Shown here piece after piece: positions 5,072-60,258 of a DNA stretch of 64,000 bases. A program made the position numbers and the translations under genes. Positions within the stretch are counted from its first letter, which is position 1, and each line of letters begins with the position of its first letter. The notes under the pieces are model-generated. The model saw only the letters and a program-made list of their open reading frames with translations. It was not told the DNA's origin and searched no databases. This DNA comes from Candidatus Saccharimonadales bacterium (lineage in GTDB: Bacteria > Patescibacteriota > Saccharimonadia > Saccharimonadales > DASZAF01), in contig DASZAF010000016.1 of assembly GCA_035945435.1 (NCBI GenBank), positions 359-64,358 of the forward strand. Reading direction: 5' to 3'.

Positions 5072-5073
5072 CT

Positions 5074-7184: not shown

Positions 7185-7194
7185 TGCTCTTCAA

Positions 7195-7259: not shown

Positions 7260-7274
7260 GATAGGAATAAAACC

Positions 7275-9971: not shown

Positions 9972-10059
<88 letters not shown>

Positions 10060-13418: not shown

Positions 13419-13484
13419 CGTATAAGTATTCTTCTTGGCTATACTGTAATACAGAAGTGGGGATCGAGGCAAGAAAGCTCTCAG

Positions 13485-13507
13485 GGTCTGAAGGCGATTT
13501 TCAGACC
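13485..13507. promoter_or_regulatory. Perfect 8-bp inverted repeat (GGTCTGAA-N7-TTCAGACC) in the divergent pilin / VirB6 promoter region; candidate operator
   Basis: The arms are 13485-13492 and 13500-13507. No T-run follows on either strand, so it is not a terminator. Confidence 0.35.
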
Positions 13508-13526
13508 TCCAGATCTTAGAAAATAC

Positions 13527-13535
13527 TGATATACT
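13527..13535 (+). promoter_or_regulatory. Extended -10 promoter (TGaTATACT) of the T4SS operon; near-leaderless
   Basis: TGATATACT ends 10 nt before the ATG at 13546, with no Shine-Dalgarno in between. Confidence 0.4.
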
Positions 13536-13545
13536 ACATTACATA

Positions 13546-16607: not shown

Positions 16608-16609
16608 TC

Positions 16610-17554: not shown

Positions 17555-17564
17555 GCCGAGTAGG

Positions 17565-25738: not shown

Positions 25739-25762
25739 TGCAAATAAAGGTAGACTACATAT

Positions 25763-26506
25763 ATGGACCCACAGTATAGACGTTATCTGCTTATGACCCT
25801 TGCCGGTGTAGTGGGCGTCTTTGTGCTCATCTTAATCGGCTACAGCCTTCGCAATGTCTTCCGCGGACCGTTTTATGTTGTCAGTACGGATCCCGCTAAC
25901 AAGGCAACCCTCGATATTGTCAGCCCAGTCTCTATCACATACAACATACCGGTTGCCTCATCAACTACCAAGAACTTCTCAATCTCCCCAAGTGTCAACG
26001 GAACTCTGTCTACAAAAGGGGACACGCTAACTTTCACTCCTAAAAACAACCTTAAATACCATGATCAGTACACGGTTATCGTCTCCAAGGCAACTTCGGC
26101 TAATGGGAAGTATACAATCGGCTCCTATAAACTCACTTTCACTGCAGGATACGTAAACTACAACCAGCTACCAAAGTCGCAGCAGCAAGCTTCAAACAAT
26201 GCGACGGATCTCCTATATAGGCAGTTCCCGATAACCAAATTCCTGCCATATCAAACAGTCCATTATTATATCGGCTTTAGCGGTGAGACTGACGGCAAGC
26301 TCGACCTTCAGATTCAACTCTTTGCTCTTTATATCAACAACAATGTGTCTATGTACCAACAGGATCTGCAGCAGTTCCAGAATGAGGCCCTGCAGTGGCT
26401 TCAAGGTAATGGTGTCAATACGTCGACTTTGAATATTACATGGAGCCCAGATCCAAATAACCCGGCAACCTACAGCAATCTACCCACTATGACTCCTGGG
26501 CCCTAA
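25763..26506 (+). CDS. Membrane-anchored protein with an Ig-like (SbsA_Ig-type) domain; last gene of the T4SS operon
   Basis: An N-terminal TM helix (LLMTLAGVVGVFVLILIGY) is followed by STDPANKATLDIVSPVSITYNIPV...FSISPSVNGTLSTKGDTLTFTPKNNLKYHDQYTVIV. Confidence 0.45.
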   Translation: MDPQYRRYLLMTLAGVVGVFVLILIGYSLRNVFRGPFYVVSTDPANKATLDIVSPVSITYNIPVASSTTKNFSISPSVNGTLSTKGDTLTFTPKNNLKYHDQYTVIVSKATSANGKYTIGSYKLTFTAGYVNYNQLPKSQQQASNNATDLLYRQFPITKFLPYQTVHYYIGFSGETDGKLDLQIQLFALYINNNVSMYQQDLQQFQNEALQWLQGNGVNTSTLNITWSPDPNNPATYSNLPTMTPGP

Positions 26507-26509: not shown

Positions 26510-27589
26510 TTATCCTAGGTTGATGGTCTGACCCAGTCTATTCTTGGGTATACTCCCTTCAATACCCGACTCCGGAGTAGTAATGATCGTCTGCCACGGC
26601 GTTAGGTGATGCGACAAGGCCTTACGTCGAGTCGCATCCAGTTCCCCAAAGACATCATCAAGTAGAAGAAGTGGTGGCCGTGAACTTACCTCGTATAGCA
26701 ATGTAGCTTCAACAATCTTGAGCATCACAACAAGGGTTCGCAACTCTCCTCGCGAGGCATTGAAGTGAGCAGGTGAACCATCGAGGTCAATTGTAAAATC
26801 GTCGCGGTGAGGGCCAACTGAGGTAAATCCTCTCTCCTGATCCTTGCTTAGATTTGTTTCCAATTGATGCAGGAAGGCAGAAGCTAGAGTGACAACATCC
26901 CCTTTAACCGCTGTCTGGTGGTGAAGTTGAACCTTTGACGCCTTGTGACTCAGCTGGCTGTAAGCATCACTTGCTAGCTTGTTTACTCTATCAATTAGAT
27001 CCTGACGTTCGTTCATAATATGAGCTCCTAGCTCGCTCAGACGCACGTTCCAGACAAAGAGTTGGTCTTGTGGAGCAATATGGTCGTAAATGTCTTTCAG
27101 GAGTCTGTTACGCTGCGCCAGTGACCGTTTGTAACGCGTCAAGATTCGCTCATAAGTGGGGGAGAGCTGAGTAAGTAGTACGTCTAGAAAGAGTCGACGC
27201 TGATCTGGGGAGCCCGTTAAGAGCTGCATGTCCCGGGGTTCAAAAAGAACAACCGGAATACGAGTGTTGACGTTTAGTCGTTTGCTGACATCATTGATCC
27301 GAAATTCCTTGGTAGTCGTCTCTTTCTGAGGATCACGACGGATACGCAGACTACGTTCAACTGCCTGCTCGTCATTCGTCGCCAGATGCAACCAATCGGC
27401 ATCATGATGTATAAGGTTACTATCCTGCACGCGAAACGAGCTTCCATAAGAAGTAACATAGAGAGCCTCAAGAAGGTTCGTCTTACCGCTACCGTTCGGG
27501 CCGACAACCATATTAACCCCATCACTTAGGTCGAATGTGGTGTCTTTATATGAGCGAAAGTTCTTAAGATGAATCTTTCTGTACATCAC
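26510..27589 (-). CDS. recF: DNA replication and repair protein RecF
   Basis: The sequence LKNFRSYKD...VVGPNGSGKTNLLEALY (Walker A) and the C-terminal LLLLDDVFGELD are present, in the conserved dnaA-dnaN-recF order. Confidence 0.9.
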   Translation of the reverse strand: MMYRKIHLKNFRSYKDTTFDLSDGVNMVVGPNGSGKTNLLEALYVTSYGSSFRVQDSNLIHHDADWLHLATNDEQAVERSLRIRRDPQKETTTKEFRINDVSKRLNVNTRIPVVLFEPRDMQLLTGSPDQRRLFLDVLLTQLSPTYERILTRYKRSLAQRNRLLKDIYDHIAPQDQLFVWNVRLSELGAHIMNERQDLIDRVNKLASDAYSQLSHKASKVQLHHQTAVKGDVVTLASAFLHQLETNLSKDQERGFTSVGPHRDDFTIDLDGSPAHFNASRGELRTLVVMLKIVEATLLYEVSSRPPLLLLDDVFGELDATRRKALSHHLTPWQTIITTPESGIEGSIPKNRLGQTINLG

Positions 27590-27625
27590 AAGCTATTATC
27601 GTTCACTTTAACCAGTGACACAAAA

Positions 27626-28720
27626 CTAGCTCTTTAACGGCATAACAATGTGCTTATAGTCGACCTGCTTCGTGGCAGCTGTCAGAACACACGGTGATAG
27701 CTTGCCGTTGAAGGCAAACTTGACGGATTTCTCATCAATACAGCCAAGTGCTTCAAGGACGTAGCGTGAGTTAAGTGTCAGCCGGCCACTTCCTGTTACT
27801 TCGGCTTCTATGTTGGCGTCGTTTTCGCCAACCTGCGAAGCAACCGAGTGGATACTGACCGTCTTGGTTGTTTCGTCCACTTCAATCGTAATACTGCCAC
27901 CGCTATCCCGAGCAAAGAGCGAGGCGATCTTGGTGATACGAACCAGCTCTTCCTTGTCCAGTACCGCAGAGGTCTCATTGGTATCAGGTATTAACTGGCG
28001 GTAATCCGGGAATGTGCCGTCAATCAAACGGCTGACAATATCGATTTCACCAATACGAATGCGAACCTGTGTCTCGTCAAACCAGAACTCAACCTCTTCA
28101 ATGTCATCCGTTAAGACTCTCAGAACTTCCTGTAGCGTGTCTGCCGGAATAATCGACTGAAGTTGGGCGGAGCTTTCCACCAGTTGTCGTTCCGCCAGGC
28201 GATAGCCGTCTGTAGCTGCAAAGTAGAGTTTCCCGTTGTGAGTATGTGCGTAGACACCAGTCAGTACCGGACGAGTGTCGTCGCCCGAAACCACTAGAAC
28301 GGTCTGCTGAATTGCTCGCTTGGTGATGTGGGCGGGGAGAGTGATCTTATTCTGGTTACTCACCGATGGCAGACTTGGAAACTCATCCGCCACCATACCG
28401 TTGATAGTAGCGTTGTAGTTAGTTGTCTTGACGTGTAGTTTATGTTGATCCGAGATTAGTTCAACATTACCTTTGGGAAGATTACTGACAAGTTCAGTCA
28501 TAAGACGAGCAGGAACTGTTAGCGACCCCTCTTCCTCAATCTTGCCTCCGACATATTCCGTAACTGCTAATTCCAGATTGGTAGCTGCAAGGAGAAGTCT
28601 GTTTTGTTCGGTCTTTAAAAGGACGTTATTTAAGATGGGCAGGGGAGTCTTGCCGGAAGCAATGCGAGCAACTACTGATAGTGCTTTGCTTAGATTCTCT
28701 TGTGTAACTTGAAGGCGCAT
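27626..28720 (-). CDS. dnaN: DNA polymerase III beta subunit (sliding clamp)
   Basis: 364 aa, MRLQVTQENLSKALSVVARIASGKTPLPILNNVLLKTEQNRLLLAATNLE..., located directly downstream of dnaA. Confidence 0.92.
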   Translation of the reverse strand: MRLQVTQENLSKALSVVARIASGKTPLPILNNVLLKTEQNRLLLAATNLELAVTEYVGGKIEEEGSLTVPARLMTELVSNLPKGNVELISDQHKLHVKTTNYNATINGMVADEFPSLPSVSNQNKITLPAHITKRAIQQTVLVVSGDDTRPVLTGVYAHTHNGKLYFAATDGYRLAERQLVESSAQLQSIIPADTLQEVLRVLTDDIEEVEFWFDETQVRIRIGEIDIVSRLIDGTFPDYRQLIPDTNETSAVLDKEELVRITKIASLFARDSGGSITIEVDETTKTVSIHSVASQVGENDANIEAEVTGSGRLTLNSRYVLEALGCIDEKSVKFAFNGKLSPCVLTAATKQVDYKHIVMPLKS

Positions 28721-28999
28721 CTTTATTGGCTGATTCCTTTCTTCCTATTGTTATTTATATAAGTAGTAGAAGTAATAGTAGGGGGTGTTGATAATGTGTA
28801 CAAACGGCTTTTCAACAGATAGAAAATTGTCTCAAGTGTTGTGAATAGTCTGCGTAAAATAGGTGCGCAACTTGATGTCAGTGGGGGAGAGAATGGGGAA
28901 TACCAGGCTGGTTTGATAGCGAGTGCTTCTACCTGTGTATAAGACCGATTTGTTTGCACATGACTAGACACAGTTGAAGACACAGTTTGTGCACAGCTC
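28721..28999. other. oriC segment in the dnaA-dnaN spacer: AT-rich stretch plus DnaA-box-like 9-mers
   Basis: TGTGTATAA (28934-28942) is a perfect TTATNCACA box on the complementary strand. TGTGAATAg (28840-28848) and TGTtGATAA (28786-28794) each match 8 of 9 positions. An AT-rich run lies at 28741-28780 (candidate unwinding element). Confidence 0.55.
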
Positions 29000-30352
29000 C
29001 TAGACATAGAGGTGCTCCCTTAGTTCTGCTACAATTTGTCGCATTGAATAATCAAGAGCGATAACTTTCTCAATCTTTTCAATGGAGTGAATGGCTGTGG
29101 TGTGGTCTTTTCTGCCAAGCTCACCGGCGATCTTCGGAAAACTTAAATGGAGTTCGCTTCGAAGTAGATACATGGCTACTTGTCTTGGTAAGACGATGTG
29201 TTTGTCGCGTTTAGGGCCAATCATATCGGCCACGGGGATCTGAAAGTGTTTGGCCGTCTTCTCTACGACCTGCTTTGAGGTCAACCTTTGTGGTCTGTTG
29301 CGGTGCGTACCGAGTAGACCACTTGCTACCTGTACATCAGGAGCGACGCCGCGCATCTCGCAATATGCCAGCAACTGATTAAGACCACCTTCAAGTTCAC
29401 GAATGTTGGTCTGGAAGTTAGTGGCTAGAAACTCAATCGTGTCTCGGTCGAGCGTTACGTTATGAGAGTTGGCCTTTGACTGCAGAATGGCGCACCGGGT
29501 CTCGTAATCGGGTGTCTGGATATCTATCGCCATCCCCCATTCGAACCGACTTCGAAGACGCTCCTCTAAAGTGGGGATCGACTTAGGGGGTTTATCTGAA
29601 CTGATGATGATCTGTTTGTTGGCCTGGTGGAGGGCGTTAAAGGTGTGGAAGAACTCTTCCTGAGTCTTCTCCTTGCCGGCAATAAACTGCATGTCATCAA
29701 CGATTAAGACATCGACGTTTCGGTAACGATCGGCAAAGCTTTTCTTCTTGAAGCGAATTGCTTCGAGGAATTCGTTAACAAAGGTTTCGGAAGATATGTA
29801 GGTGACATGTGCGTCTGGGTTCTGCTCAGCGATGCCATTACCGACGGCCTGGATAAGGTGTGTCTTGCCAAGCCCGACCCCGCCGTAAATAAAGAGCGGG
29901 TTGTACTTCATACCCGGGTCGCTAACGACTGCTTGGCAGGCAGCATAGGCTAGTTCGTTGCTCGAGCCGACTATAAAAGTGTCAAAGACGTAGCGAGGAT
30001 TAAGCCCGACAGCTCTACTGTTGGGCTTAGAGCCTGAGGCGAGCGAGTTGGTGGGCAGGGAAACGACATCCTGTCCGGCACGGCCTTCATTCTTCTTCGT
30101 GTTTTTGCTGGATCGTATCTCGTAGGTGATACTTTTTACTTTGACTTCGTTCTTCTCGAGACTCTCTTTTATCTGTTTGTTGTATTTGACCTCGAGCTGT
30201 CTTTTGGCAAAGATGTTCGGCACCTCAATGGTGATATTGCCATTAGCGTCATCAATCAGTTCGGTATTTTTAAACCACGTCGTGAAGTTAGCACGAGATA
30301 CTGCAAGCTCGATTTCACCGAGAACACTCTGCCAAGTGGCACTCTTCGCCAA
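29000..30352 (-). CDS. dnaA: Chromosomal replication initiator protein DnaA
   Basis: The AAA+ core reads NPLFIYGGVGLGKTHLIQAVG...DVLIVDDMQFIAGKEKTQEEFFHTFN. The C-terminal DNA-binding domain reads GRKDHTTAIHSIEKI. The start is TTG with a GAGGGAGG Shine-Dalgarno. Confidence 0.95.
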   Translation of the reverse strand: MAKSATWQSVLGEIELAVSRANFTTWFKNTELIDDANGNITIEVPNIFAKRQLEVKYNKQIKESLEKNEVKVKSITYEIRSSKNTKKNEGRAGQDVVSLPTNSLASGSKPNSRAVGLNPRYVFDTFIVGSSNELAYAACQAVVSDPGMKYNPLFIYGGVGLGKTHLIQAVGNGIAEQNPDAHVTYISSETFVNEFLEAIRFKKKSFADRYRNVDVLIVDDMQFIAGKEKTQEEFFHTFNALHQANKQIIISSDKPPKSIPTLEERLRSRFEWGMAIDIQTPDYETRCAILQSKANSHNVTLDRDTIEFLATNFQTNIRELEGGLNQLLAYCEMRGVAPDVQVASGLLGTHRNRPQRLTSKQVVEKTAKHFQIPVADMIGPKRDKHIVLPRQVAMYLLRSELHLSFPKIAGELGRKDHTTAIHSIEKIEKVIALDYSMRQIVAELREHLYV

Positions 30353-33981: not shown

Positions 33982-34926
33982 ATGGCAAAATCAAACGGGA
34001 GTCACACAAGAAAGGGCCTGAAATTACTGCTAATCACAGCCCTGATTGTCGTTGTCGTCTCTGCTCTCGCCTGGTATCTAGATCATCATACTGTTGCGGT
34101 TTTGCAGCCTGCAGGAGAAGTTGCCCGAAGAGAACGGGAGCTCATGATTATCGCCATCCTTCTTTCCGTTATCGTAGTAGTGCCAGTCTATATTATGGCA
34201 ATCTCCTTTGCCTGGCGATACCGCGAGGACAACCGAAAGATCAAAACTCGCAAGTACCAGCCAGATTGGGATCGTAGCCGCGTTTACGAGACTCTTTGGT
34301 GGGGTATCCCGATTATTATCATCGGCGCCCTCTCAGTTATAACCTGGGAAAGCTCTCACGCCCTTGATCCCTTCAAACCGCTGAGTTCTTCGGTGCCGGC
34401 CATACCTGTTGATGTTGTTGCACTCGACTGGAAGTGGCTATTTATCTATCCGAAGCAGCATATTGCCTCTGTAAACTTGCTTGAAATACCTAGCAATGTA
34501 CCAATTGACTTTGATGTTACCTCTGATACCGTTATGAACTCTTTCTGGATTCCGCGGCTCGGCGGGCAGATCTACGCCATGCCAGGTATGTCGACCCAAC
34601 TACACCTCATAGCTAACGAGACCGGGAGCTACTATGGTTCATCCGCGAATATTTCCGGCGTCGGCTTTGCGGGCATGAACTTCACAACTAAGTCGGTTAG
34701 CTGGTCGGACTTTAACGCTTGGGTGAAAAGAGCTCAAGCATCATCGAAGGTTTTAACGTCGGAGGCGTATAGCAAACTTGCTGAACCTAGCCAGAATAAC
34801 AAGGCCACCTACTACTCAGATGTCCCAAATAATTTGTATGATGATACTGTCATGAAATATATGTCGCCTCTTGATATGCCGACAATGCCTGCATCAGCCT
34901 CATCAACGGGGATGTACATGCAATGA
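33982..34926 (+). CDS. cyoA: Cytochrome bo3-type quinol oxidase subunit II
   Basis: SDTVMNSFWIPRLGGQIYAMPGMSTQLHLIANETGSYYGSSANISGVGFAGMNF aligns with CyoA. The CuA Cys/His ligands are absent, which indicates the quinol-oxidase type. Two N-terminal TM helices are present. Confidence 0.88.
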   Translation: MAKSNGSHTRKGLKLLLITALIVVVVSALAWYLDHHTVAVLQPAGEVARRERELMIIAILLSVIVVVPVYIMAISFAWRYREDNRKIKTRKYQPDWDRSRVYETLWWGIPIIIIGALSVITWESSHALDPFKPLSSSVPAIPVDVVALDWKWLFIYPKQHIASVNLLEIPSNVPIDFDVTSDTVMNSFWIPRLGGQIYAMPGMSTQLHLIANETGSYYGSSANISGVGFAGMNFTTKSVSWSDFNAWVKRAQASSKVLTSEAYSKLAEPSQNNKATYYSDVPNNLYDDTVMKYMSPLDMPTMPASASSTGMYMQ

Positions 34927-36935
34927 ACTGGCACATACTGACACTCTTCGGTGGTCTACTCGGCAAGCTCAACCTTAACCAGATACCACGCGATCCGATT
35001 ACTTTCGGTGCGGCCGCTTCTATTGTCGGTGGCTCGATCCTAGTCGTTATCTTGCTTACCTACTTCAAGAAATGGAAGTGGCTGTGGAATGAGTGGTTGA
35101 CGACGACGGACCATAAGAAGATTGGCACGATGTACCTAATAGTAGCTGGCCTGATGCTCGCACGGGGAGGTGTCGATGCTGTCATGATGCGCCTTCAGCA
35201 GGCAACGTCAGTGGGGGCCTCACACGGGATTATGTCTTCGAATATGTTCCAACAGGTCTTTTCTGCGCACGGTACAATCATGATCTTCTTCGTTGGTATG
35301 GGTTTCCTCTTCGGCATCGTCAATCTGGTTCTGCCTTTGCAGATAGGCTCACGTGATGTTGCTTTTCCCTTTATGAATGCCACAAGTTTCTGGCTCTTTG
35401 CAGCGGGCATGGTTTTGATCAACGTCTCGCTGGTTATCGGCTCATTCTCGGGAGCAGGTTGGCTAGCTTATCCGCCACTTAGTGAGTTAAAATTCAGCCC
35501 TGGCGTCGGCGTTGATTACTGGATATGGAGTCTGGAGATTGCCGGTGTTGGTAGCCTGCTTAGTGGTATCAACTTTATGACTACCATATTTAAGATGCGG
35601 GCACCGGGCATGACATTTAGAAGACTCCCGATGTTCGTCTGGAGTGTCATGGGGACTATGACACTTGTTATTTTTGCCTTTCCAATTCTAACTGTCACCT
35701 TGACCCTCCTATTTCTCGATAGAGCACTTGGGATGCATTTCTTTACAGCTGGTGGTGGAGGCAACGCCATGATGTATGTCAATCTCATCTGGGCCTGGGG
35801 GCATCCGGAGGTTTACATATTAGTTCTACCCGCCTTCGGAATCTATTCGGAAGTAGTGGCCACTTTCTCTAGGAAGCGACTTTTCGGGTATACCTCTATG
35901 GTCTGGGCAATCTGGGCAATCGTTCTCCTCTCGTTCTGCGTCTGGCTGCACCATTTCTTTACCATGGGCGCGGGTGCAGACGTTAACGCCGTCTTTGGTA
36001 TTGCTACTATGCTGATTGCGGTACCGACTGGTGTGAAGATCTTCAATTGGCTCTTCACAATGTATAGAGGAAGGATCCACTTTGCTTCACCGATGATTTG
36101 GTTTATGGGATTTGTCTTTCTCTTTACCATGGGCGGAGTGGCCGGAGTCCTTATGGCGGTGCCTCCGATCGACTTTCAGGTCCACAACAGTCTCTTCTTG
36201 GTTGCTCACTTTCATACCATGATTGTCAGTGGTGTGCTGTTTGGCTACTTTGCCGGCCTGACTTATTGGTTTCCTAAGTATTTCGGCTTCAAGTTGAATG
36301 AACGACTCGGTAAGTATGCGGCCTGGTGCTGGATAATCGGCTTTGTTTTGGCCTTCGGCCCGCTGTATATTCTCGGGCTTATGGGAGCGACACGACGCCT
36401 CGATCACTACGCGCTTTCAACGGGCTGGCAGCCCTTGTTCATAGTTGCGGGAATCGGCGTGGCTATTATCTGTCTAGGTGGTGCCTTTCAAGTCCTGCAG
36501 TTAATTGTCAGCTTCTTCCAGCGAGGGACGCACAAGGATCTAAGTGGTGACCCATGGAATGGTCGCACACTTGAGTGGTCAACACCTTCGCCCGTTCCCT
36601 TTTATAACTTTGCACTTATCCCAAATGTAACGGATAGAGATGCTTTCTGGGCTATGAAGCAGGCCAAGAAAGGGAAAGGCGAGGGGAACGAACCACCGTA
36701 TCGGCCGATACACGTGATGAAGAATACCCCGGCAGGCCTATTCATTGCCGCCTTTGCGTTTGCCGTTGGCTTCGGCGCTGTCTGGCATAGCTGGCTTCTT
36801 GTGGCGGCGGGCCTTATCGGTCTGGCCTTAACGATGATTATTCGTCTGAGCAACGATAGTATTGAGCGGACTGTCTCAGTGGCAGAGATCAAGCGCGTCG
36901 AGGCTAGCTATGTGGTTGAAGGAGAGAGTGTATGA
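34923..36935 (+). CDS. cyoB: Cytochrome bo3-type quinol oxidase subunit I (heme-copper oxidase)
   Basis: 670 aa, polytopic. The sequence contains HKKIGTMYLIVAGLMLARGG..., WAWGHPEVYILVLPAFG and HHFFTMG motifs. Confidence 0.93.
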   Translation: MNWHILTLFGGLLGKLNLNQIPRDPITFGAAASIVGGSILVVILLTYFKKWKWLWNEWLTTTDHKKIGTMYLIVAGLMLARGGVDAVMMRLQQATSVGASHGIMSSNMFQQVFSAHGTIMIFFVGMGFLFGIVNLVLPLQIGSRDVAFPFMNATSFWLFAAGMVLINVSLVIGSFSGAGWLAYPPLSELKFSPGVGVDYWIWSLEIAGVGSLLSGINFMTTIFKMRAPGMTFRRLPMFVWSVMGTMTLVIFAFPILTVTLTLLFLDRALGMHFFTAGGGGNAMMYVNLIWAWGHPEVYILVLPAFGIYSEVVATFSRKRLFGYTSMVWAIWAIVLLSFCVWLHHFFTMGAGADVNAVFGIATMLIAVPTGVKIFNWLFTMYRGRIHFASPMIWFMGFVFLFTMGGVAGVLMAVPPIDFQVHNSLFLVAHFHTMIVSGVLFGYFAGLTYWFPKYFGFKLNERLGKYAAWCWIIGFVLAFGPLYILGLMGATRRLDHYALSTGWQPLFIVAGIGVAIICLGGAFQVLQLIVSFFQRGTHKDLSGDPWNGRTLEWSTPSPVPFYNFALIPNVTDRDAFWAMKQAKKGKGEGNEPPYRPIHVMKNTPAGLFIAAFAFAVGFGAVWHSWLLVAAGLIGLALTMIIRLSNDSIERTVSVAEIKRVEASYVVEGESV

Positions 36936-37549
36936 GTGAAAGTGCTGCCACCATGGCTGTCGAGCAGTTGAATACCCGTGAAGAGCACCAGGAGGCGGAC
37001 TCACGCGCGACCTTCGGCTTCTGGGTCTATATCATGACCGACTGTGTCCTCTTTGCCAGCCTCTTTGCTGCCTTTGCCGTTCTGCGTAATAACACGTACG
37101 GCGGTCCTCCAGGCGGTCTATTATTCAGTCTCCCCTACATCTTGACGGAAACACTCGCCCTGTTAACTAGTAGCTTCACATGCGGACTAGGTATACTTGC
37201 CGCCAACCAAAAGAAGAAAAATCTGACCCTCTTCTGGTTTGGAGTTACCTTCCTGCTGGGCGCCTTCTTTGTTGGGCTTGAGCTACATGAGTTTGCCAAA
37301 CTGGTCCATGATGGTGACAGTTGGCGTCGAAGCGGCTTTCTCTCATCCTACTTTACGCTGGTGGCTACTCATGGCCTCCATGTGTCGATGGGCTTGCTCT
37401 GGATGATCGTCATGGGATTTCAGGTGGCTACCCGCGGGCTCGTCCGTTCGACAGTTCGTCGCCTGACATTGCTGAGCATGTTCTGGCACTTCTTGGATAT
37501 TGTCTGGATCTTCATCTTTACGATCGTGTATCTGCTGGGGGCCCTCTAA
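36932..37549 (+). CDS. cyoC: Cytochrome bo3-type quinol oxidase subunit III
   Basis: 205 aa with five TM helices. FGFWVYIMTDCVLFASLFA...HFLDIVWIFIF is typical of CyoC. Confidence 0.85.
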   Translation: MSESAATMAVEQLNTREEHQEADSRATFGFWVYIMTDCVLFASLFAAFAVLRNNTYGGPPGGLLFSLPYILTETLALLTSSFTCGLGILAANQKKKNLTLFWFGVTFLLGAFFVGLELHEFAKLVHDGDSWRRSGFLSSYFTLVATHGLHVSMGLLWMIVMGFQVATRGLVRSTVRRLTLLSMFWHFLDIVWIFIFTIVYLLGAL

Positions 37550-37550
37550 T

Positions 37551-37952
37551 ATGGATGAACAGAAACCACAACTTTTTAAGAAAGAACGTGCTACTTACCG
37601 GGGGAGTCTGGCTCTCTATGTAACCGGATTTATCTCGTCAGTTGTCTGTACTCTGGTGGCCTATATGCTGGTCTGGATCCACGTCAACTCGGGTCACGAA
37701 ACCTTCACTCATCCGTTCATCATCACCTGTATTGTTGCCTTGGCGCTCGTTCAGTTCTTCGTTCAACTCTACTTCTTCTTGCATCTTGGCCACGAAACCA
37801 AGCCTCGTTGGAAACTGTTGGTTCTTGCCTTCATGATATTGGTTGTTTTCATCTTGGTCTTTGGCAGCCTCTGGATCATGCACAATCTTAACTACAGAAT
37901 GACCCCTCAGCAGATGAATACGTATATGATCAACCAGAACGGCGGCCTATGA
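37551..37952 (+). CDS. cyoD: Cytochrome bo3-type quinol oxidase subunit IV
   Basis: The ATG at 37551 (MDEQKPQLF...) lies directly after the cyoC stop. The track start at 37500 is inside cyoC. Three TM helices are present, with the LALVQFFVQLYFFLHL motif. Confidence 0.8.
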   Translation: MDEQKPQLFKKERATYRGSLALYVTGFISSVVCTLVAYMLVWIHVNSGHETFTHPFIITCIVALALVQFFVQLYFFLHLGHETKPRWKLLVLAFMILVVFILVFGSLWIMHNLNYRMTPQQMNTYMINQNGGL

Positions 37953-38803
37953 GTCTACTCAAGGACTACTACGAGCTAGCCAAGCCAGAGCGAACCTATG
38001 CCAACATTATGACGGCTGGAGCAGGGTTCTTGCTGGCCTCTAGATGGCATATCAACTGGGCGCTACTAGTCTACCTACTGGTTGGTACGTCGCTAGTTAT
38101 CGGTTCAGCCTGTGTCGTCAATAACTACATTGACCGAGAGATAGACAAGAAGATGGCTCGGACAAAGAAGCGCCCGCTAGCTGTTGGTCGGATACCACTT
38201 TGGAACGCCATAACCTATGCCGTTATTCTTGGTGTTGTTGGCTTTGGCATCTTGGCTCTCTATGTCAACTGGCTGGTTGTTGCGATGGGGGTCATAGCCT
38301 ATATAGACTACGTTGTCCTATACGGCATTGCCAAGCGAAAATCAACCTACGGAACGATTGTCGGCAGTGTCTCTGGCTCTATGTCGATGGCAGCGGGTTA
38401 TGTGGCAGTCAGCGGTCGGATCGATGGAGCAGCAGTCTTACTATTTGCCATTATGACCCTCTGGCAGATGCCTCACTTTTACTCAATTGCCATGTACCGC
38501 CTCAAAGACTACACGGCGGCGGGGATCCCGGTTCTTCCGAGTAAAATCGGCATGCGGAATACTAAGATACGAATTATCTTGTATATCATTGCGTTCATGG
38601 TGGCCTCCATGCTTCTGACTGCGTTCGGCTATGCCAACGATATCTATTTCACTATCGCTGCGGCCGTCAGCGTCTATTGGCTTTGGCAGGGGTTGCAGAC
38701 TTTTGAGGCTGCCAAGGACGAACCTTGGGCTCGAAAGATGTTCTTCACCTCGCTAACAGTTTTGACTGTCCTCTGTCTAGGGATAGCCATAGGGTCAATC
38801 TAG
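37949..38803 (+). CDS. cyoE: Heme O synthase (protoheme IX farnesyltransferase)
   Basis: UbiA-family motif NNYIDREIDKKMARTKKRPLA in a polytopic protein, located downstream of cyoD. Confidence 0.88.
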   Translation: MSLLKDYYELAKPERTYANIMTAGAGFLLASRWHINWALLVYLLVGTSLVIGSACVVNNYIDREIDKKMARTKKRPLAVGRIPLWNAITYAVILGVVGFGILALYVNWLVVAMGVIAYIDYVVLYGIAKRKSTYGTIVGSVSGSMSMAAGYVAVSGRIDGAAVLLFAIMTLWQMPHFYSIAMYRLKDYTAAGIPVLPSKIGMRNTKIRIILYIIAFMVASMLLTAFGYANDIYFTIAAAVSVYWLWQGLQTFEAAKDEPWARKMFFTSLTVLTVLCLGIAIGSI

Positions 38804-56478: not shown

Positions 56479-56937
56479 ATGAGTAGAGCAGTGGCCGAGC
56501 ACCCGTCCGCGCTGGTGCGTCTACACAGAGAGCTGAAAGAGTGGGTTGTTATCCCCTATCTTCTCGAGGGACAGATCTACTTTTGGAGTGGCTACCTCGT
56601 ATTCGTTCTCTGCTACCACTTTCTTGGTTTCCGGCTCTTTCCCTCGACAGCAATTCAGTATGTTTTTGGCTTGATCATCAACTTCATCCTGGTGCGTTAC
56701 TGGGTCTTTGCCAAACAGGCTCGACGTGATCATCTCAAAGCTGGGATTATAAAGTACGGTCTCTATCTGGCCCTTAACTACTTTGTCACCTACTTCCTGC
56801 TTAAGGGTATGCAAGACTATCTGGATATCACACCATATATTGGCCAGTTCATTGCGGCAGGGTTTATGACGTTCTGGAATTACTTCAATTACCGAACCTG
56901 GGTCTTTAAAGGCCCAACACGCATACATCACAATTGA
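56479..56937 (+). CDS. GtrA-family membrane protein
   Basis: YVFGLIINFILVRYWVF... and the C-terminal FWNYFNYRTWVF motif, with four TM helices. Confidence 0.75.
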   Translation: MSRAVAEHPSALVRLHRELKEWVVIPYLLEGQIYFWSGYLVFVLCYHFLGFRLFPSTAIQYVFGLIINFILVRYWVFAKQARRDHLKAGIIKYGLYLALNYFVTYFLLKGMQDYLDITPYIGQFIAAGFMTFWNYFNYRTWVFKGPTRIHHN

Positions 56938-56975
56938 TTCGGCAGATAATAGGGGTTATCATAAGCATATTCATC

Positions 56976-57446
56976 ATGACTCCTAGCGAAATGCGACCCA
57001 GCAAAAAACAACGTGAGCTCCTCGATTTTATCGAGAATTTCATAAACGAACACGGATATGGGCCGAGTTATCGGGAGATAATGAGGGGAATGGGTTATAA
57101 GTCTGTTTCAACCGTAGCTATCCATATCGATAATCTAATCTCTAAAGAATGCCTCAGAAAGCGGACGCGCTCAGCTCGCTCGCTTGAAGTTATGAGACAG
57201 AGCGCAGAGGTGCCAGTACAGTCATCCGCCAAAGCTTCTCCTGAGAAATGGCTCGTCGGGCAAGTCGATAAGAGGTTTCAGGCAGTTGAGAAGTCTGCCA
57301 AAAAAGTCGAAGAGGAAGCCTTGAATGATCTCTACGTTCTCGTCGGAACACTGCACATACTAGGTATGAAAGAGCATGCCGAGAGCGCCAAGTCACGCCT
57401 CATGGCTCTAAAAGAAAAGGTCAGTGCTCCTGTTGAAGCAAATTGA
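56976..57446 (+). CDS. LexA N-terminal DNA-binding domain protein lacking the S24 peptidase domain
   Basis: SKKQRELLDFIENFINEHGYGPSYREIMRGMGYKSVSTVAIHIDNLISKECLRK is the LexA winged-helix domain. The remainder is a short helical tail with no Ala-Gly cleavage site and no Ser/Lys peptidase domain. Confidence 0.7.
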   Translation: MTPSEMRPSKKQRELLDFIENFINEHGYGPSYREIMRGMGYKSVSTVAIHIDNLISKECLRKRTRSARSLEVMRQSAEVPVQSSAKASPEKWLVGQVDKRFQAVEKSAKKVEEEALNDLYVLVGTLHILGMKEHAESAKSRLMALKEKVSAPVEAN

Positions 57447-57482
57447 CCACCCTCGTTAATACAGATATAATAACCTGCGTAT

Positions 57483-57557
57483 TCCGGGGTAGCTCAATGG
57501 TAGAGCGTTCGACTGTTAATCGAATGGTTGCGAGTTCGAGTCTCGCCCCCGGAGCCA
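57483..57557 (+). tRNA. tRNA-Asn (anticodon GUU), CCA encoded
   Basis: The sequence reads TCCGGGG-TA-GCTC-AATGGTA-GAGC-G-TTCGA-CTGTTAA-TCGAA-TGGTT-GCGAG-TTCGAGT-CTCGC-CCCCGGA-G-CCA. Confidence 0.88.
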
Positions 57558-57564
57558 ATTTACT

Positions 57565-57876
57565 TCATTTAGACTTCGATTGCTTACTTAGTACCCACTG
57601 CACCGACGGGCTTATCGACTTATCTGTACGATGGATGCAGCCTAGCCAGCAACATGGTCTGCGCATACCTTCTTTAAGTTCAGAAACAACTCGCCTGACG
57701 TGTTCATCTCTGGTTTTTTGCTGCTTGACAGTTACTGTCCAGCAGATCCATTCATTACGCGCCAACGGTGTTATATCCTCCCATCTTTCCAATGCAGACT
57801 TGTCAGATAACAGAGCCTTGCGTAAGTCGGCCGGCATTTTGTGTACAGTACCACCGGATATCTCGTGTTTTGCCAT
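57565..57876 (-). CDS. YdeI/OmpD-associated family protein
   Basis: WEDITPLARNEWICWTVTVKQQKTRDEHVRRVVSELKEGMRRPCCW matches the YdeI-family C-terminal pattern. Confidence 0.65.
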   Translation of the reverse strand: MAKHEISGGTVHKMPADLRKALLSDKSALERWEDITPLARNEWICWTVTVKQQKTRDEHVRRVVSELKEGMRRPCCWLGCIHRTDKSISPSVQWVLSKQSKSK

Positions 57877-57904
57877 AGATATATTTTACCCCAGCTAAAC
57901 TATC

Positions 57905-60145
57905 CTACGACCAACCTCCGGAGCGTATACCAATAAGAATAGGTTTGAGGTTGGCATTTGCTAGCCCGGTAAGGGTTGTGGCGTTGCTTGGCAATGGACC
58001 TGAAGTTGTCCCAGACATGATAACTGACATGTTGCCTGATGCGGACTGCTTGTTGAATGTATCTGTAGTGTTGTCGATCCAAAGAGCGAGCCAGTAGACG
58101 CCCTTATCGATATTGATGTTACCACTCGTGAAAGCGGGCGTAAGTGTGCTAGATGAAGTGGCAAGGCTGGTGGCCGTTGCGGCAGCATGAGCTAGCAGAG
58201 TTTTCGGACCACCGTTTGTCCCGTCGCTCTTATAGATCCCGACATCATAGTGGCCTGCTCCGCCTGACGCAAACCTGACCCTAACACCAGTCAACGTAAC
58301 CGGTGCTGGTACAGTTACAGCGACGAGATATGCTGTATTGACTGCACCGGCAGCTGAACTGCTGGTCTGAGCTATCTCCCCGTCGTAGATGGCTAGTGGT
58401 GTGACTGGTGGAGTCGCATTCAGACTGTACCAATTCGTTCCGTCAGTCACGAGCTGGACTACATCATAGTTGGTTATCAGCACCTTACTGCTAGCGCCGT
58501 CTATGGTTCCGCTTGAAGGAGTGATCGTAATGTTGTTTGTTGCTGCTGTCCCGGATATGTCCTTAATCACTAAGACGCGGCTTGCCATATTGGCGGGGTT
58601 GGGGATGGTGATCGTTATGGCGGCGGATTGGTTGCATAGAATATCAGTATCGGTCGGAAGTGCAGAGTAACTCGAAGTAGTGGTGGTGACTCCGCTGAAA
58701 CCAGGGTTGTAGCCAAGAAAGTCAACACTACCAGAGTTAAGGGATATATAACCACTGGTTCCTGCCAGCAAGTTATTTCCGAGAATCGTGTTATTGGTGA
58801 ATGGCCCGCCGGACTCACCTATCGCGTAGCTATAATGCACTGGCGCAGCGGTATTGTCGAATTTGTTACCTATGATCGTGTTGTTTGAAGAGCCGATCTG
58901 GATTCCGAACTGAACGGTATTCGTTGACGGAGAGCCGAGCTGGTTGTCGGCGAAAATGTGGTTGCCGCCGTTTATGGTGATAGCCTGATTTCTGACCTGG
59001 TCGAAACGGTTACCAACAACACGACAAGGACCACTGTTTGATAGACGGATTGCTTCAGTACTATAAGTACCGCCTTTCCCGAAGATATTGCCGCTAACAT
59101 TCATATAACCGCTGCCGCAACGCAGATGCATCGCTGTTGTGTCTTGCGGTGAAAAGGCAGGTTGTGCAGCGGCTGTCGCAGCTCCCGCCCATTTAAAGCG
59201 GTTCTCAATGATATCGTTCGCCTCACAGTTGGTGGCAAAGATATTGGCGTTACCAACGTCAAAGACGCATCTAGATATCTGATTATCATAACCAAAATTA
59301 TTCCCTGGTCCTGTGTTATCACCGTCTAGTAGGATCGCCCAGTTCGGACAGCCTTGGATAAAGACGTCACGGATATATGAATACCTGACTCCATACCAGT
59401 GGATACCATTGCCTTGTCCGGCAGTCGTTCCTGACATATTTGTGCAGTTAATTGAGAGCTGTTCAATTCCGATGTAGTTTCTGACGTAGCCGCTTGTTCC
59501 TGCCGTAGAAGGGATTGCAGTTGCAATAACATCGAAGTTGGCACCTGATTTCGGTTCGATAACAGTGTCCCAGCCTGATCCGCGAAGCAGTATAGAGTCG
59601 CCCGTTATCGTTATGCTTGAACCTGTCGCATAAGTGCCGGCTGGGAAGAAGACAACACCGCCACCTGCCGCCTGAGCTGCGGCTATGGCATTATTAATTG
59701 CTGTCGAGTCGTCGGAGACACCGTTACCAGTGGCTCCGAATCCCATGACGTTAAAAACTGTTGGAATTGCACTTGTCTGCGGGCTCAGTTGTGTCCAGTT
59801 TGTGCCAGAAAACGCCGCGCCTGAGTTATGGGAAGTGGCACAGATGAAGAAGCCACCGTTGTAGCTGACTGCATTGTCGACATTGTAATTGGTGTTTGTC
59901 TGCCAGGCTCCTCTAAAGTTAACGTTGGCCGATAAGTTTCCGAGTTGAGAAGCAGGGATCTGGCCCGAGCCATCTAAGGTGGCGATTCCATTTGCGGCGC
60001 CTGAAGATTGCGTCGTCAAACCGCCGGCCTTGGTAATAGCGCTCGTTTGGAGGGTGCCGTCTGAATTAAGGGAGACCTCAAGAAAGCTGTTAAGGACATT
60101 CCCCCAAGTTCCGTTATCACCACCAGGGTTTGGCAGGCGAGTCAC
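57905..60145 (-). CDS. Right-handed beta-helix protein of the pectate-lyase superfamily (tailspike/depolymerase-like)
   Basis: The GTG start follows a TATAAT promoter. The N-terminus is MTRLPNPGGDNGTWGNVLNSFL. FNVMGFGATGNGVSDDSTAINNAIAAAQAAGGGVVFFPAGTY is a Pectate_lyase_3-type motif. Repetitive G/N-rich beta-helix rungs and a C-terminal jelly-roll-like region follow. Confidence 0.7.
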   Translation of the reverse strand: MTRLPNPGGDNGTWGNVLNSFLEVSLNSDGTLQTSAITKAGGLTTQSSGAANGIATLDGSGQIPASQLGNLSANVNFRGAWQTNTNYNVDNAVSYNGGFFICATSHNSGAAFSGTNWTQLSPQTSAIPTVFNVMGFGATGNGVSDDSTAINNAIAAAQAAGGGVVFFPAGTYATGSSITITGDSILLRGSGWDTVIEPKSGANFDVIATAIPSTAGTSGYVRNYIGIEQLSINCTNMSGTTAGQGNGIHWYGVRYSYIRDVFIQGCPNWAILLDGDNTGPGNNFGYDNQISRCVFDVGNANIFATNCEANDIIENRFKWAGAATAAAQPAFSPQDTTAMHLRCGSGYMNVSGNIFGKGGTYSTEAIRLSNSGPCRVVGNRFDQVRNQAITINGGNHIFADNQLGSPSTNTVQFGIQIGSSNNTIIGNKFDNTAAPVHYSYAIGESGGPFTNNTILGNNLLAGTSGYISLNSGSVDFLGYNPGFSGVTTTTSSYSALPTDTDILCNQSAAITITIPNPANMASRVLVIKDISGTAATNNITITPSSGTIDGASSKVLITNYDVVQLVTDGTNWYSLNATPPVTPLAIYDGEIAQTSSSAAGAVNTAYLVAVTVPAPVTLTGVRVRFASGGAGHYDVGIYKSDGTNGGPKTLLAHAAATATSLATSSSTLTPAFTSGNINIDKGVYWLALWIDNTTDTFNKQSASGNMSVIMSGTTSGPLPSNATTLTGLANANLKPILIGIRSGGWS

Positions 60146-60258
60146 TTCTATCTTTCCCTTTCAGACCTTAAGCATTTATATTATACCTCGAGCACGTCGG
60201 ACTTGGTACGTCGGACTGTATATGGTAAAGGATCAGTCACTAGCTCGTAGATCTGGTT

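What the first reader, a model, noticed from the sequence alone, without database searches (positions are those of the whole stretch)
57905..60145. Phage-tailspike-like beta-helix protein as a lone gene next to tRNA-Asn
The N-terminus MTRLPNPGGDNGTWGNVLNSFL and the motif FGATGNGVSDDSTAINNAIAAAQAAGGGVVFFPAGTY are characteristic of pectate-lyase-superfamily beta-helix depolymerases. Such proteins are frequent in tail fibres and tailspikes of phages of Gram-positive and actinobacterial hosts. The C-terminal 150 aa or so look like a separate jelly-roll or lectin-type domain.

No other phage genes flank the gene. Its neighbours are the YdeI-like gene, tRNA-Asn and a methyltransferase-like ORF. There is no classical signal peptide.

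In an epibiont, a domesticated polysaccharide depolymerase could act on the host's capsule or wall glycans. Alternatively it is the last remnant of a prophage that integrated at tRNA-Asn.
Basis: partly seen in the sequence, partly recalled or inferred. Interest (0 to 1): 0.55.

Follow-up and report, generated by a model that had tools for sequence, protein, structure and literature searches.

The report
Lone phage-type tailspike gene in Saccharimonadales
An intact gene for a phage-style sugar-binding and probably sugar-cutting tail spike sits alone, with no other phage genes around it, beside a tRNA gene in the chromosome of a tiny epibiotic bacterium; it is an interesting but not unprecedented case of a captured phage gene whose role in the cell is unknown.

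Summary
A 746-aa ORF lies at 57905-60145 (-), next to tRNA-Asn and a YdeI-like gene. It has no signal peptide and no flanking phage genes. The organism is a Candidatus Saccharimonadales MAG.

The protein is a modular phage-type receptor-binding protein:
- a 40-aa N-terminal motif;
- a CBM5/12 module;
- a pectate-lyase-fold beta-helix (pLDDT about 97);
- two C-terminal beta-sandwich modules.

The helix core is 45-67% identical to about 85 metagenomic proteins. Every one whose context I could read, apart from one second cellular copy, lies in a phage tail module or a viral contig. In three viral or phage contigs the same N-terminal motif heads the protein; two of these genes follow the tape-measure or Dit gene. 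It is not GH28 and not an AlgE-type epimerase, because their motifs are absent.

In two Saccharimonadales relatives, synteny is conserved up to LexA-like and, where readable, tRNA-Asn. It breaks immediately after the tRNA. There is no att repeat, no nearby integrase and no compositional anomaly.

An 81%-identical copy lies at an unrelated locus in another Saccharimonadales genome. Synonymous sites are saturated and pN is about 0.1, so the gene is not decaying.

Best reading: a singly captured, still functional phage tailspike gene. Whether it serves the cell, and on which glycan, is unresolved.

The parts
57905..60145 (-). Whole gene: 746-aa phage-type tailspike / receptor-binding depolymerase-like protein (stop codon 57905-57907)
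   Evidence: ORF. Identical NCBI protein. Domain map by BLASTP.
60026..60145 (-). N-terminal conserved motif (aa 1-40, RLPxPGxDxGxWGxxLNxFL...DGTL), putative virion-attachment or adaptor module
   Evidence: The motif is found at the N-terminus of 17 retrieved proteins. These include P0047, encoded directly after Dit in a siphophage tail module, and the L099 protein, encoded directly after the tape-measure gene.
59789..59908 (-). CBM5/12 carbohydrate-binding module (aa 80-119)
   Evidence: Pfam PF02839, 26.7-29.1 bits against a cut-off of 26.2. The AlphaFold confidence here is low.
58691..59761 (-). Right-handed parallel beta-helix core (aa 129-485), the putative glycan-binding and glycan-cleaving domain
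   Evidence: PF12708. pLDDT about 97. Foldseek matches to AlgE4, Geobacillus virus E2 ORF18, phi29 gp12, Sf6 tailspike and RbmB, and to phage spikes in BFVD. About 85 homologs at 45-67% identity. The family-wide near-invariant acidic residues D205, D274, D276, E308, D382 and E444 are retained.
58418..58690 (-). C-terminal module A (aa 486-576), a 90-aa beta-sandwich of phage tail type
   Evidence: 7705 relatives, often in tandem repeats. Relatives hit Pfam T4_gp9_10_N. The module's own sub-threshold hits are T4_gp9_10_N (E 0.0019) and Phage_depo_C (E 0.0042). Fold matches include the phage Solidus tailspike (93 columns, rmsd 2.5), CBA120 TSP4 and T4 gp9.
57908..58417 (-). C-terminal module B (aa 577-746), a 170-aa beta-sandwich with no Pfam family
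   Evidence: It is found as stand-alone 160-180-aa proteins and at the C-terminus of other beta-helix proteins, one of them (P0138) with the same N-terminal motif. pLDDT is above 90. The best fold match is cyanophage A4 capsid-associated chain 9jwb_Z (E 4.6e-9). Weaker matches are PHR, CBM35 and CBM6 sandwiches.
60152..60185 (-). Possible own expression signals: TATAAT at 60180-60185 and GGGAAAG at 60152-60158 upstream of the GTG start
   Evidence: Read directly from the sequence. The consensus scan did not call a full promoter here, so this is inference.
57483..57557 (+). tRNA-Asn(gtt), the point where synteny with relatives ends
   Evidence: ARAGORN and Rfam. The same GtrA-LexA-like block is in L094 and L095. 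tRNA-Asn follows LexA-like in L095, and a partial tRNA-like match lies at the end of the L094 contig. The downstream genes differ.
57565..57876 (-). YdeI/OmdA-like gene, 28 nt downstream on the same strand (possibly co-transcribed)
   Evidence: Pfam PF13376, E 8e-15. No PHROG hit. It is not linked to the homolog in L001.

Best explanation
The gene encodes a complete, modular phage-type receptor-binding protein: N-terminal adaptor motif, CBM5/12, pectate-lyase-fold beta-helix and two C-terminal beta-sandwich modules. It derives from a phage lineage and now sits as a single-gene insertion in the variable chromosome segment just 3' of tRNA-Asn of a Candidatus Saccharimonadales bacterium, beside that organism's conserved surface-glycan biosynthesis block.

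It is not part of a recognisable prophage and it is not decaying. The reading frame is intact. Its composition matches the genome. It has plausible expression signals of its own. It keeps all family-invariant acidic residues.

The most likely molecular action is binding of a specific cell-surface polysaccharide along the helix groove, probably with cleavage, helped by the CBM and the C-terminal sandwiches, as in phage tailspike depolymerases.

Shown here: the architecture, the phage affiliation, the lone context, the synteny break and purifying selection. Inferred: enzymatic activity, expression, and that the cell (rather than only a past phage) benefits. Unknown: the target glycan (the bacterium's own envelope or that of a host bacterium) and the export route.
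For: - Architecture and fold.
- Phage contexts of homologs: L004 has tube-TMP-Dit then the gene. L006 has capsid-tube-TMP then the gene, with holin and integrase. L008 is a myophage whose portal is 53-59% identical to Streptomyces phages. L010 has Dit followed by an N-motif helix protein. L099 has TMP followed by an N-motif helix protein. Eight IMG/VR contigs carry relatives at 41-63% identity.
- In an NJ tree, window+P0002 form one clade nested among phage-borne sequences.
- Lone context: only this gene in the 64-kb window matches those phage contigs. The neighbours have no structural-phage PHROG hits.
- Synteny with L094 and L095 is conserved up to LexA-like. tRNA-Asn follows it in L095, and a partial tRNA-like match ends the L094 contig. 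Where the downstream side can be read (L095), it is unrelated.
- Not decaying: against the 81%-identical P0002 gene, pS is 0.84 (saturated) while pN is 0.11 in the helix and 0.09 in module B.
- Composition is native: GC 0.506 and GC3 z = -0.57 relative to the window's genes.
- P0002 lies in an unrelated chromosomal locus of another Saccharimonadales genome.
- The family-invariant acidic residues are retained.
Against: - There is no signal peptide, TM segment or sorting motif, so an extracellular role for the cell needs an unknown export route or cell lysis.
- The gene is sporadic. It is absent from both syntenic relatives. A pattern scan of 185,579 GTDB species representatives found no family member. 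That fits cargo better than an old domesticated function.
- The purifying selection measured between the two copies could have acted while the gene was still in phages.
- Enzymatic activity, trimer formation and expression are untested.
- The NJ tree has no support values.
Confidence: 0.58

Rival explanations
1. Neutral leftover. The gene is the last surviving piece of a phage or other integrative element that entered at tRNA-Asn. It is still intact by chance or through recent arrival and has no function for the cell.
For: - It lies directly 3' of a tRNA, exactly where synteny with relatives ends.
- The family is overwhelmingly phage-borne.
- The gene is sporadic in cellular genomes.
- It has no export signal.
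- Viral contigs with relatives and a genome-like GC (0.48-0.56) exist, so a recent donor need not look foreign.
- The genome has at least one phage-type serine integrase elsewhere, at 7275-8924.
Against: - There is no repeat of the tRNA-Asn 3' end anywhere in the window.
- There is no integrase within 49 kb, and no other phage gene or pseudogene fragment matches the related phage contigs.
- The 2.2-kb frame is uninterrupted, and a second 81%-identical intact copy sits in a different, equally phage-free locus of another Saccharimonadales genome.
- GC and GC3 are native.
Confidence: 0.25
2. Native housekeeping enzyme. The gene encodes an ordinary cellular polysaccharide hydrolase, lyase or epimerase that belongs to the adjacent surface-glycan cluster and trims or remodels the cell's own glycan, like RbmB or AlgG-type enzymes. 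On this view phages borrowed the domain from such genes.
For: - The gene is embedded between glycan genes. Upstream are ManC-like, GT4, Bac_transf, Wzy_C and GtrA. Downstream are GT2, PIG-L and GtrA.
- The P0002 copy also lies 2-6 kb from PIG-L and GT2 genes.
- The highest TM-scores in the PDB search are to RbmB, a matrix lyase of the Vibrio VPS locus (TMt 0.64-0.69).
Against: - The syntenic glycan block of relatives lacks the gene.
- It is nested among phage sequences.
- It carries an N-terminal motif and C-terminal modules that are otherwise found in tail-module proteins and phage structures.
- No family member was found in the GTDB representatives.
- It has no signal peptide, whereas secreted glycan-processing enzymes normally have one.
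Confidence: 0.1
3. Orphan receptor-binding cassette used in trans. The chromosomal gene supplies, or recombines into, tails of phages or satellites that replicate in this cell. This would explain why the virion-attachment motif is kept.
For: The N-terminal motif is retained in both cellular copies even though the rest of the N-terminal region diverges (50% identity over aa 3-81; pN 0.42 for aa 1-128). The lack of an export signal fits a protein that assembles in the cytoplasm.
Against: No cognate phage, satellite or tail genes are in the window. There is no precedent in this lineage. This is purely inferential.
Confidence: 0.05

Closest known systems
Phage tailspike / depolymerase receptor-binding proteins with a pectate-lyase-fold beta-helix (for example Sf6 and P22 tailspikes, phi29 gp12, Geobacillus virus E2 ORF18 7CHU, Klebsiella and Acinetobacter capsule depolymerases)
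   Same: The modular layout is the same: a short N-terminal module, a central right-handed beta-helix and C-terminal beta-sandwich modules. Close sequence relatives are encoded in tail modules.
   Different: The gene is encoded alone in a cellular chromosome with no virion genes. tblastn found no match to any of 50,697 isolated phage genomes. Module B and the N-terminal motif have no curated family. Trimer formation and activity are untested.
AlgE4/AlgE6 mannuronan C5-epimerase A-modules (2PYG, 5LW3)
   Same: These are the best Foldseek E-values in the PDB (9e-11) and share the PF12708 N-terminal cap.
   Different: Identity is only 16-19%. The catalytic motif YG(F/I)DPH(D/E) is absent. There are no Ca-binding R-modules.
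RbmB, the Vibrio cholerae VPS lyase (9OZL), and other cell-encoded matrix-trimming beta-helix enzymes
   Same: It has the highest TM-score to a solved structure (TMt up to 0.69). Like RbmB, the gene lies beside polysaccharide biosynthesis genes.
   Different: Identity is about 15%. RbmB is a secreted cellular enzyme conserved with its locus. This gene is sporadic, lacks a signal peptide and groups with phage genes.
PfbA, the beta-helix surface adhesin of Streptococcus pneumoniae (3ZPP, 4MR0)
   Same: It has a beta-helix with the same N-terminal cap. It shows that this fold can act as an adhesin rather than an enzyme.
   Different: PfbA has a signal peptide and an LPXTG anchor. This protein has neither.
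GH28 polygalacturonases and rhamnogalacturonases (the NCBI product name is 'GH28-related')
   Same: The general beta-helix fold and the cap motif.
   Different: NCBIfam GH28-type equivalogs score 23-42 bits against cut-offs of 500-800. The NTD, DD, GHG and RIK motifs are absent.

Membership tests
Pfam PF12708 pectate-lyase-like beta-helix superfamily | Profile score above the curated gathering cut-off | tested here: met
   50.7 bits against a cut-off of 27, aa 131-253.
Pfam PF12708 pectate-lyase-like beta-helix superfamily | Right-handed parallel beta-helix fold | tested here: met
   The AlphaFold model has pLDDT about 97 for aa 130-480. Foldseek probability is 1.0 to many beta-helix structures.
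GH28 glycoside hydrolases | Conserved catalytic motifs (NTD, DD, G-x-HG, RIK) and a family-level profile score | tested here: not met
   None of the motifs is present. NCBIfam GH28-type equivalogs score 23-42 bits against cut-offs of 500-800.
AlgE-type mannuronan C5-epimerases | Catalytic motif YG(F/I)DPH(D/E) | tested here: not met
   The motif is absent. Identity is 16-19%.
Phage tailspike / receptor-binding depolymerase | Close homologs encoded within phage tail-gene modules | tested here: met
   L004, L006, L008, L010 and L099. Eight IMG/VR contigs.
Phage tailspike / receptor-binding depolymerase | N-terminal module shared with virion-borne proteins (attachment to the tail) | tested here: inconclusive
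   The same N-terminal motif heads tail-module proteins P0047, L097 and L099. That it attaches the protein to a tail is inferred, not shown.
Phage tailspike / receptor-binding depolymerase | The gene itself lies in a virion or tail module | tested here: not met
   The neighbours are YdeI, tRNA-Asn, LexA-like, YbaK-like and glycan genes. No other window gene matches the phage contigs.
Phage tailspike / receptor-binding depolymerase | Homotrimer with polysaccharide-cleaving activity | not testable with these tools
   Only monomer models were made. Conserved acidic residues (D205, D274, D276, E308, D382, E444) are compatible with activity but do not prove it.
Prophage remnant integrated at a tRNA | Direct repeat of the tRNA 3' end (attL/attR) | tested here: not met
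   The 17-nt and 26-nt 3' ends of tRNA-Asn, with up to 3 mismatches, match only the tRNA itself. No such repeat occurs in 57400-64000. The window ends at 64000, so a more distant attR cannot be excluded.
Prophage remnant integrated at a tRNA | Integrase or other phage genes or pseudogenes adjacent | tested here: not met
   No structural-phage PHROG or Pfam hit within 18 kb upstream or in the 4 kb to the window end. tblastx against related phage contigs matches only the gene itself. The nearest integrase is at 7275-8924, 49 kb away across dnaA and dnaN.
Prophage remnant integrated at a tRNA | Insertion relative to related genomes, directly 3' of the tRNA | tested here: met
   L094 and L095 share the block up to LexA-like. 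tRNA-Asn follows it in L095, and L094 has a partial match at its contig end. None of the downstream genes is present where the relative can be read (L095). The relatives are distant (about 60% aa identity), so ordinary rearrangement is not excluded.
Prophage remnant integrated at a tRNA | Foreign base composition | tested here: not met
   GC is 0.506 against 0.490 for the window. GC3 z = -0.57.
CBM5/12 carbohydrate-binding module | Profile score above the gathering cut-off | tested here: met
   26.7 bits for the whole protein and 29.1 bits for the fragment, against 26.2. This is marginal, and model confidence is low there.
Sec-exported or wall-anchored surface protein | N-terminal signal peptide, TM segment or LPXTG | tested here: not met
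   Maximum KD(15) is 0.54 in aa 1-80. Maximum KD(19) is 1.41 over the whole protein. There is no LPXTG.

The most novel reading that the evidence does not exclude
A Saccharimonadales epibiont has co-opted a receptor-binding depolymerase from phages that infect its high-GC (actinobacterial) host. It uses this ready-made host-glycan recognition and cutting tool to find, attach to or breach the host envelope.

Evidence that does not exclude this:
- The five phage or phage-like contigs found through the protein search have 60-70% GC.
- One of them has a portal 53-59% identical to Streptomyces phages.
- The neighbouring YbaK-like gene is also closest to Actinomycetota.
- Published work shows that a phage of a Saccharibacteria host binds the epibiont (PMC13578794) and that predicted Saccharibacteria phages are targeted by Actinobacteria CRISPR spacers (PMC10746230).
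Probability: 0.12. Interest if true: 0.8.

Novelty: new member of a known kind. Interest (0 to 1): 0.4.

Why it matters
Saccharibacteria live attached to other bacteria, and how they recognise and engage the host surface is largely unknown. Their phages are barely characterised. A phage receptor-binding protein carries a precise glycan specificity.

If the cell uses this one, it would be a direct handle on either of two things:
- the epibiont's own phage receptor or surface glycan;
- the host glycan it attaches to.

Either way the protein can be tested recombinantly. If it is only cargo, the locus still marks tRNA-Asn as an insertion hot spot. It also documents gene flow between uncultured phages and Saccharimonadales, and it defines two uncurated phage tail modules: the N-terminal WGxxLN motif and C-terminal module B.

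Tried and rejected
- tblastn of the protein against 50,697 isolated phage genomes gave no match. The family is known only from metagenomes.
- Module B against IMG/VR by pattern scan gave no relative.
- The full-family alignment A1 was too divergent for the locus search. The narrower alignment A3 found nothing in GTDB representatives.
- An empty-site comparison was attempted through YbaK-like in GTDB. It returned mostly Actinomycetota and two non-syntenic Saccharimonadia loci.
- The same comparison through LexA-like in JGI metagenomes returned one distant hit.
- Only the protein-database route gave usable syntenic relatives, and those are distant.
- An exact-protein lookup of the window's own gene in the contig index was not on record.
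- A homology search with the 75-aa N-terminus alone found no candidates.
- L001, L002 and L003 are 99.98-99.995% identical, so they give no in-situ selection signal.
- A search for an attP-like copy of the tRNA-Asn 3' end in all phage loci found none.
- Rfam found only the tRNA near the gene.
- Rejected: GH28 membership and AlgE-type epimerase membership, because the motifs are absent.
- Rejected: linkage to the serine-integrase element at the left end of the window, because dnaA, dnaN, recF and respiratory genes lie between.
Full report
OBSERVATION

tRNA-Asn(gtt) lies at 57483-57557 (+). A YdeI/OmdA-like gene lies at 57565-57876 (-), 28 nt downstream of the ORF on the same strand.

The identical protein is in NCBI as 'MAG TPA: glycosyl hydrolase family 28-related protein [Candidatus Saccharimonadales bacterium]', on a 66-kb contig. 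The 'epibiont' assumption is therefore reasonable.

The protein has no signal peptide, TM segment or LPXTG motif.

ANATOMY

BLASTP against the retrieved homologs, together with profile searches, divides the protein into five parts.

1. aa 1-40 is a conserved N-terminal motif (RLPxPGxDxGxWGxxLNxFL...DGTL). It recurs at the extreme N-terminus of 17 retrieved proteins with different downstream domains.
2. aa 80-119 is a CBM5/12 module, marginally above Pfam's cut-off.
3. aa 129-485 is a PF12708 beta-helix. About 85 metagenomic proteins share it at 45-67% identity.
4. aa 486-576 is 'module A', a 90-aa unit.
   - It has 7705 relatives among 1.8 billion representative proteins, often in tandem arrays.
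   - Its relatives hit Pfam T4_gp9_10_N.
   - Its own sub-threshold hits are T4_gp9_10_N and Phage_depo_C.
5. aa 577-746 is 'module B', a 170-aa unit with no curated family.
   - It occurs as stand-alone 160-180-aa proteins.
   - It also occurs at the C-terminus of other beta-helix proteins, including one (P0138) with the same N-terminal motif.

AlphaFold gives the helix a pLDDT of about 97. With a dedicated alignment, the C-terminal 270 aa reach pLDDT 90 as two beta-sandwiches.

Foldseek places the helix next to these structures:
- the AlgE4 and AlgE6 epimerases;
- Geobacillus virus E2 ORF18;
- phi29 gp12;
- PfbA;
- the Sf6 tailspike;
- GH87;
- RbmB;
- many phage 'pectate lyase superfamily' spikes in BFVD.

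The leading matches of the C-terminal model are nearly all phage structural proteins:
- a cyanophage A4 capsid-associated chain;
- the Klebsiella phage KP1 baseplate;
- the Acinetobacter phage Solidus tailspike;
- CBA120 TSP4;
- the mycobacteriophage Douge central fibre;
- T4 gp9.

PHR, CBM35 and CBM6 sandwiches rank lower.

The GH28 motifs and the AlgE catalytic motif are absent. Six acidic residues that are nearly invariant across 68 family members are retained. This is compatible with an active glycan-cleaving groove but does not prove one.

WHERE THE RELATIVES LIVE

Every helix-core homolog whose context I could read, other than P0002, is in phage-like DNA.

| Homolog | Identity | Locus | Context |
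|---|---|---|---|
| P0014 | 61% | L004 | follows tube, tape-measure and Dit genes |
| P0026 | 49% | L006 | follows capsid, tube and tape-measure genes; followed by holin and integrase |
| P0044 | 51% | L008 | between head genes and sheath/tube genes of a myophage; its portal is 53-59% identical to Streptomyces phages BRock, LuckySocke and others |
| P0047 | 51% | L010 | carries the N-terminal motif; follows Dit |
| P0046 | 51% | L009 | dense array of small unknown ORFs |
| P0009 | 63% | L104 | dense array of small unknown ORFs |

A pattern scan of IMG/VR found eight viral contigs at 41-63% identity. In L099 the N-motif helix protein directly follows the tape-measure gene. L097 encodes a protein with the same N-terminal motif.

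In a neighbour-joining tree of the core, the window protein and P0002 form one clade. That clade is sister to P0006 and P0009 and is nested among phage-borne sequences. The tree has no support values.

Isolated phage genomes contain no match. A pattern scan of 185,579 GTDB species representatives found no family member. The family is therefore essentially a metagenomic phage tail family that is rare in cellular genomes.

THE CELLULAR COPIES

P0002 is 81% identical over aa 129-746 and has a longer, divergent N-terminal region that keeps the motif. It lies in a cellular locus: SecE-NusG-L11-L1 ... PIG-L, GT2, histidine kinase | gene | DUF6953, YgjP-like.

That locus's L11 falls in a 90% cluster with a Candidatus Saccharimonadales L11. 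Its flanks share nothing with the window.

Two more distant N-motif beta-helix proteins are likewise lone genes in cellular contexts:
- P0088, from an NCBI Saccharimonadales MAG;
- P0089.

Between the window gene and the P0002 gene, synonymous sites are saturated (pS 0.84). pN is 0.11 in the helix, 0.09 in module B, 0.18 in module A and 0.42 in aa 1-128. This is strong purifying selection. It cannot be said whether it acted in cells or in phages. The three P0002 loci are the same strain and carry no information on this.

THE LOCUS

The window is ordinary chromosome.
- recF-dnaN-dnaA lies at 26.5-30.4 kb.
- A quinol oxidase lies at 34-37 kb.
- A large surface-glycan cluster runs from about 38.8 kb. 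It contains ABC-2/Wzt, GT4s, an FkbM methyltransferase, GT2, a ManC-like gene, Bac_transf, Wzy_C and GtrA.

Two Saccharimonadales relatives share the block ManC-like, GT4, Bac_transf, Wzy_C, GtrA, LexA-like at 37-66% aa identity. They are L094 and L095 (GCA_050730875.1). In L095 a tRNA-Asn follows LexA-like, as in the window. In L094, ARAGORN finds no tRNA. A 42-nt match to the window's tRNA-Asn region lies at the very end of that contig, after two unrelated ORFs.

None of the window's downstream genes is present in L095. These are YdeI, the helix gene, the 229-aa ORF, YbaK-like, DUF3817, GT2, PIG-L and GtrA. The L094 contig ends at the tRNA-like match, so its downstream side cannot be read. 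L095 has unrelated genes after the tRNA. Where it can be read, synteny therefore ends exactly at tRNA-Asn.

The signatures of a recent integration are absent.
- No copy of the tRNA 3' end occurs anywhere in the window or in any phage locus.
- There is no integrase within 49 kb.
- No neighbour has a structural-phage PHROG hit.
- tblastx of the whole window against all related phage loci matches only this gene.
- GC (0.506 against 0.490) and GC3 (z = -0.57) are native.

Upstream of the GTG start there is a TATAAT at about -35 nt and a GGGAAAG ribosome-binding-like site. The consensus scan did not call a full promoter.

INTERPRETATION

The best-supported account is a phage-derived receptor-binding depolymerase gene. 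It was captured singly in the variable segment 3' of tRNA-Asn, is still intact and has been constrained. Its likely molecular action is to bind, and probably cleave, a specific surface polysaccharide.

What it does for the cell is inferred, not shown. The lack of an export signal and the sporadic distribution weigh against a long-established domesticated function. The intactness of two diverged copies in two phage-free loci weighs against mere decay.

I put about 0.58 on 'functional captured phage RBP gene' and 0.25 on 'neutral remnant'. I put 0.10 on 'native glycan-cluster enzyme'. That rival is supported only by the neighbourhood and the RbmB fold match. I put 0.05 on 'orphan RBP used in trans by phages'.

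WHOSE GLYCAN?

The five phage or phage-like contigs found through the protein search (L004, L006, L008, L009, L010) have 60-70% GC, and L008 is clearly related to Streptomyces phages. L010's capsid has weak actinophage matches. IMG/VR relatives span 48-68% GC.

The Saccharimonadales loci have 46-54% GC. A donor phage of a high-GC, possibly actinobacterial, host is therefore possible. A Saccharimonadales phage is not excluded.

The literature makes the three-way phage, host and epibiont contact plausible.
- A prophage of the actinobacterial host binds TM7x (PMC13578794).
- Predicted Saccharibacteria phages are targeted by Actinobacteria spacers (PMC10746230).
- Patescibacteria phages carry lectin/glucanase genes proposed to aid adhesion (PMC12911398).

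I rate the reading 'epibiont uses a host-phage RBP against the host envelope' at about 0.12.

VERDICT

This is a new member of a known kind, a phage tailspike-type beta-helix protein, in an uncommon setting. It is of moderate interest.

Noticed in passing
window 530-8924, with tRNA-Arg 8859-8935 and tRNA-Ser at 9813-9905 and 9972-10059: A large serine recombinase (7275-8924; PHROG integrase, E 1e-66) abuts a tRNA cluster. Upstream of it are a DUF4236 protein with a strong PHROG hit (530-1693; phrog_17982, E 9e-65) and several ORFs with no family. This may be an integrative element at the left end of the window. It is separate from the tailspike gene, 49 kb away across dnaA.
   Followed up: partly
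window 12292-26506: A type IV secretion-like cluster. It contains a T4SS pilin (12292-13044), PrgI (16610-17554), a VirB4/TraG P-loop ATPase (18617-20650), a 950-aa unknown (20650-23502), a beta-lactamase-like plus CHAP hydrolase (23483-25738) and a Big_5 protein (25763-26506).
   Followed up: no
window 60985-61521: The YbaK/tRNA-editing-domain gene next to the tailspike is more similar to Actinomycetota homologs (65-66% identity, or 71% over a shorter match; for example Mycobacterium and Pseudonocardiales) than to the Saccharimonadales/Saccharimonadia homologs found (59% and 53%). This suggests transfer from the host phylum. Its GC3 is nevertheless native.
   Followed up: partly
window 56934-57446; L094 10001-10453; L095 10001-10438: A short LexA-like protein has only the LexA DNA-binding domain, with no peptidase S24 hit. 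It has thousands of homologs, and all but one of those that carry an organism name are Saccharimonadales or Saccharibacteria. In the relatives examined it sits after GtrA. A tRNA-Asn follows it in L095 and in the window.
   Followed up: partly
window 33982-38803: Quinol/cytochrome oxidase subunits II and I plus a UbiA-family prenyltransferase, in a Saccharimonadales genome next to the replication-origin genes (recF-dnaN-dnaA at 26510-30352).
   Followed up: no
proteins P0117, P0118, P0123, P0127 and P0133 (relatives of window 58418-58690): The 90-aa module A occurs in long tandem arrays, up to 23 copies in a 3238-aa protein. It also occurs together with collagen repeats and T4 gp9/10-like domains. 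It appears to be an abundant, poorly curated phage-fibre building block.
   Followed up: partly
proteins P0119, P0121, P0122 and others (relatives of window 57908-58417): Module B exists as many stand-alone 160-180-aa proteins at 40-53% identity. Whether these are separately encoded tail-tip proteins or fragments from short contigs was not determined.
   Followed up: no
protein P0108 (688 aa): The same N-terminal motif (71% identity over 38 aa) is fused to an alpha-L-fucosidase (PF01120) domain instead of a beta-helix. The motif is therefore a portable module attached to different glycan-active domains.
   Followed up: no
window 57443-57898 (+): A 151-aa ORF in the mechanical list overlaps tRNA-Asn and runs antisense to the YdeI-like gene. 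It is almost certainly spurious.
   Followed up: yes
L094 11418-11459 (contig end): The 52-kb contig of the closest syntenic relative ends inside a partial match to the window's tRNA-Asn region. This fits an assembly break at a variable or repeated region there.
   Followed up: no
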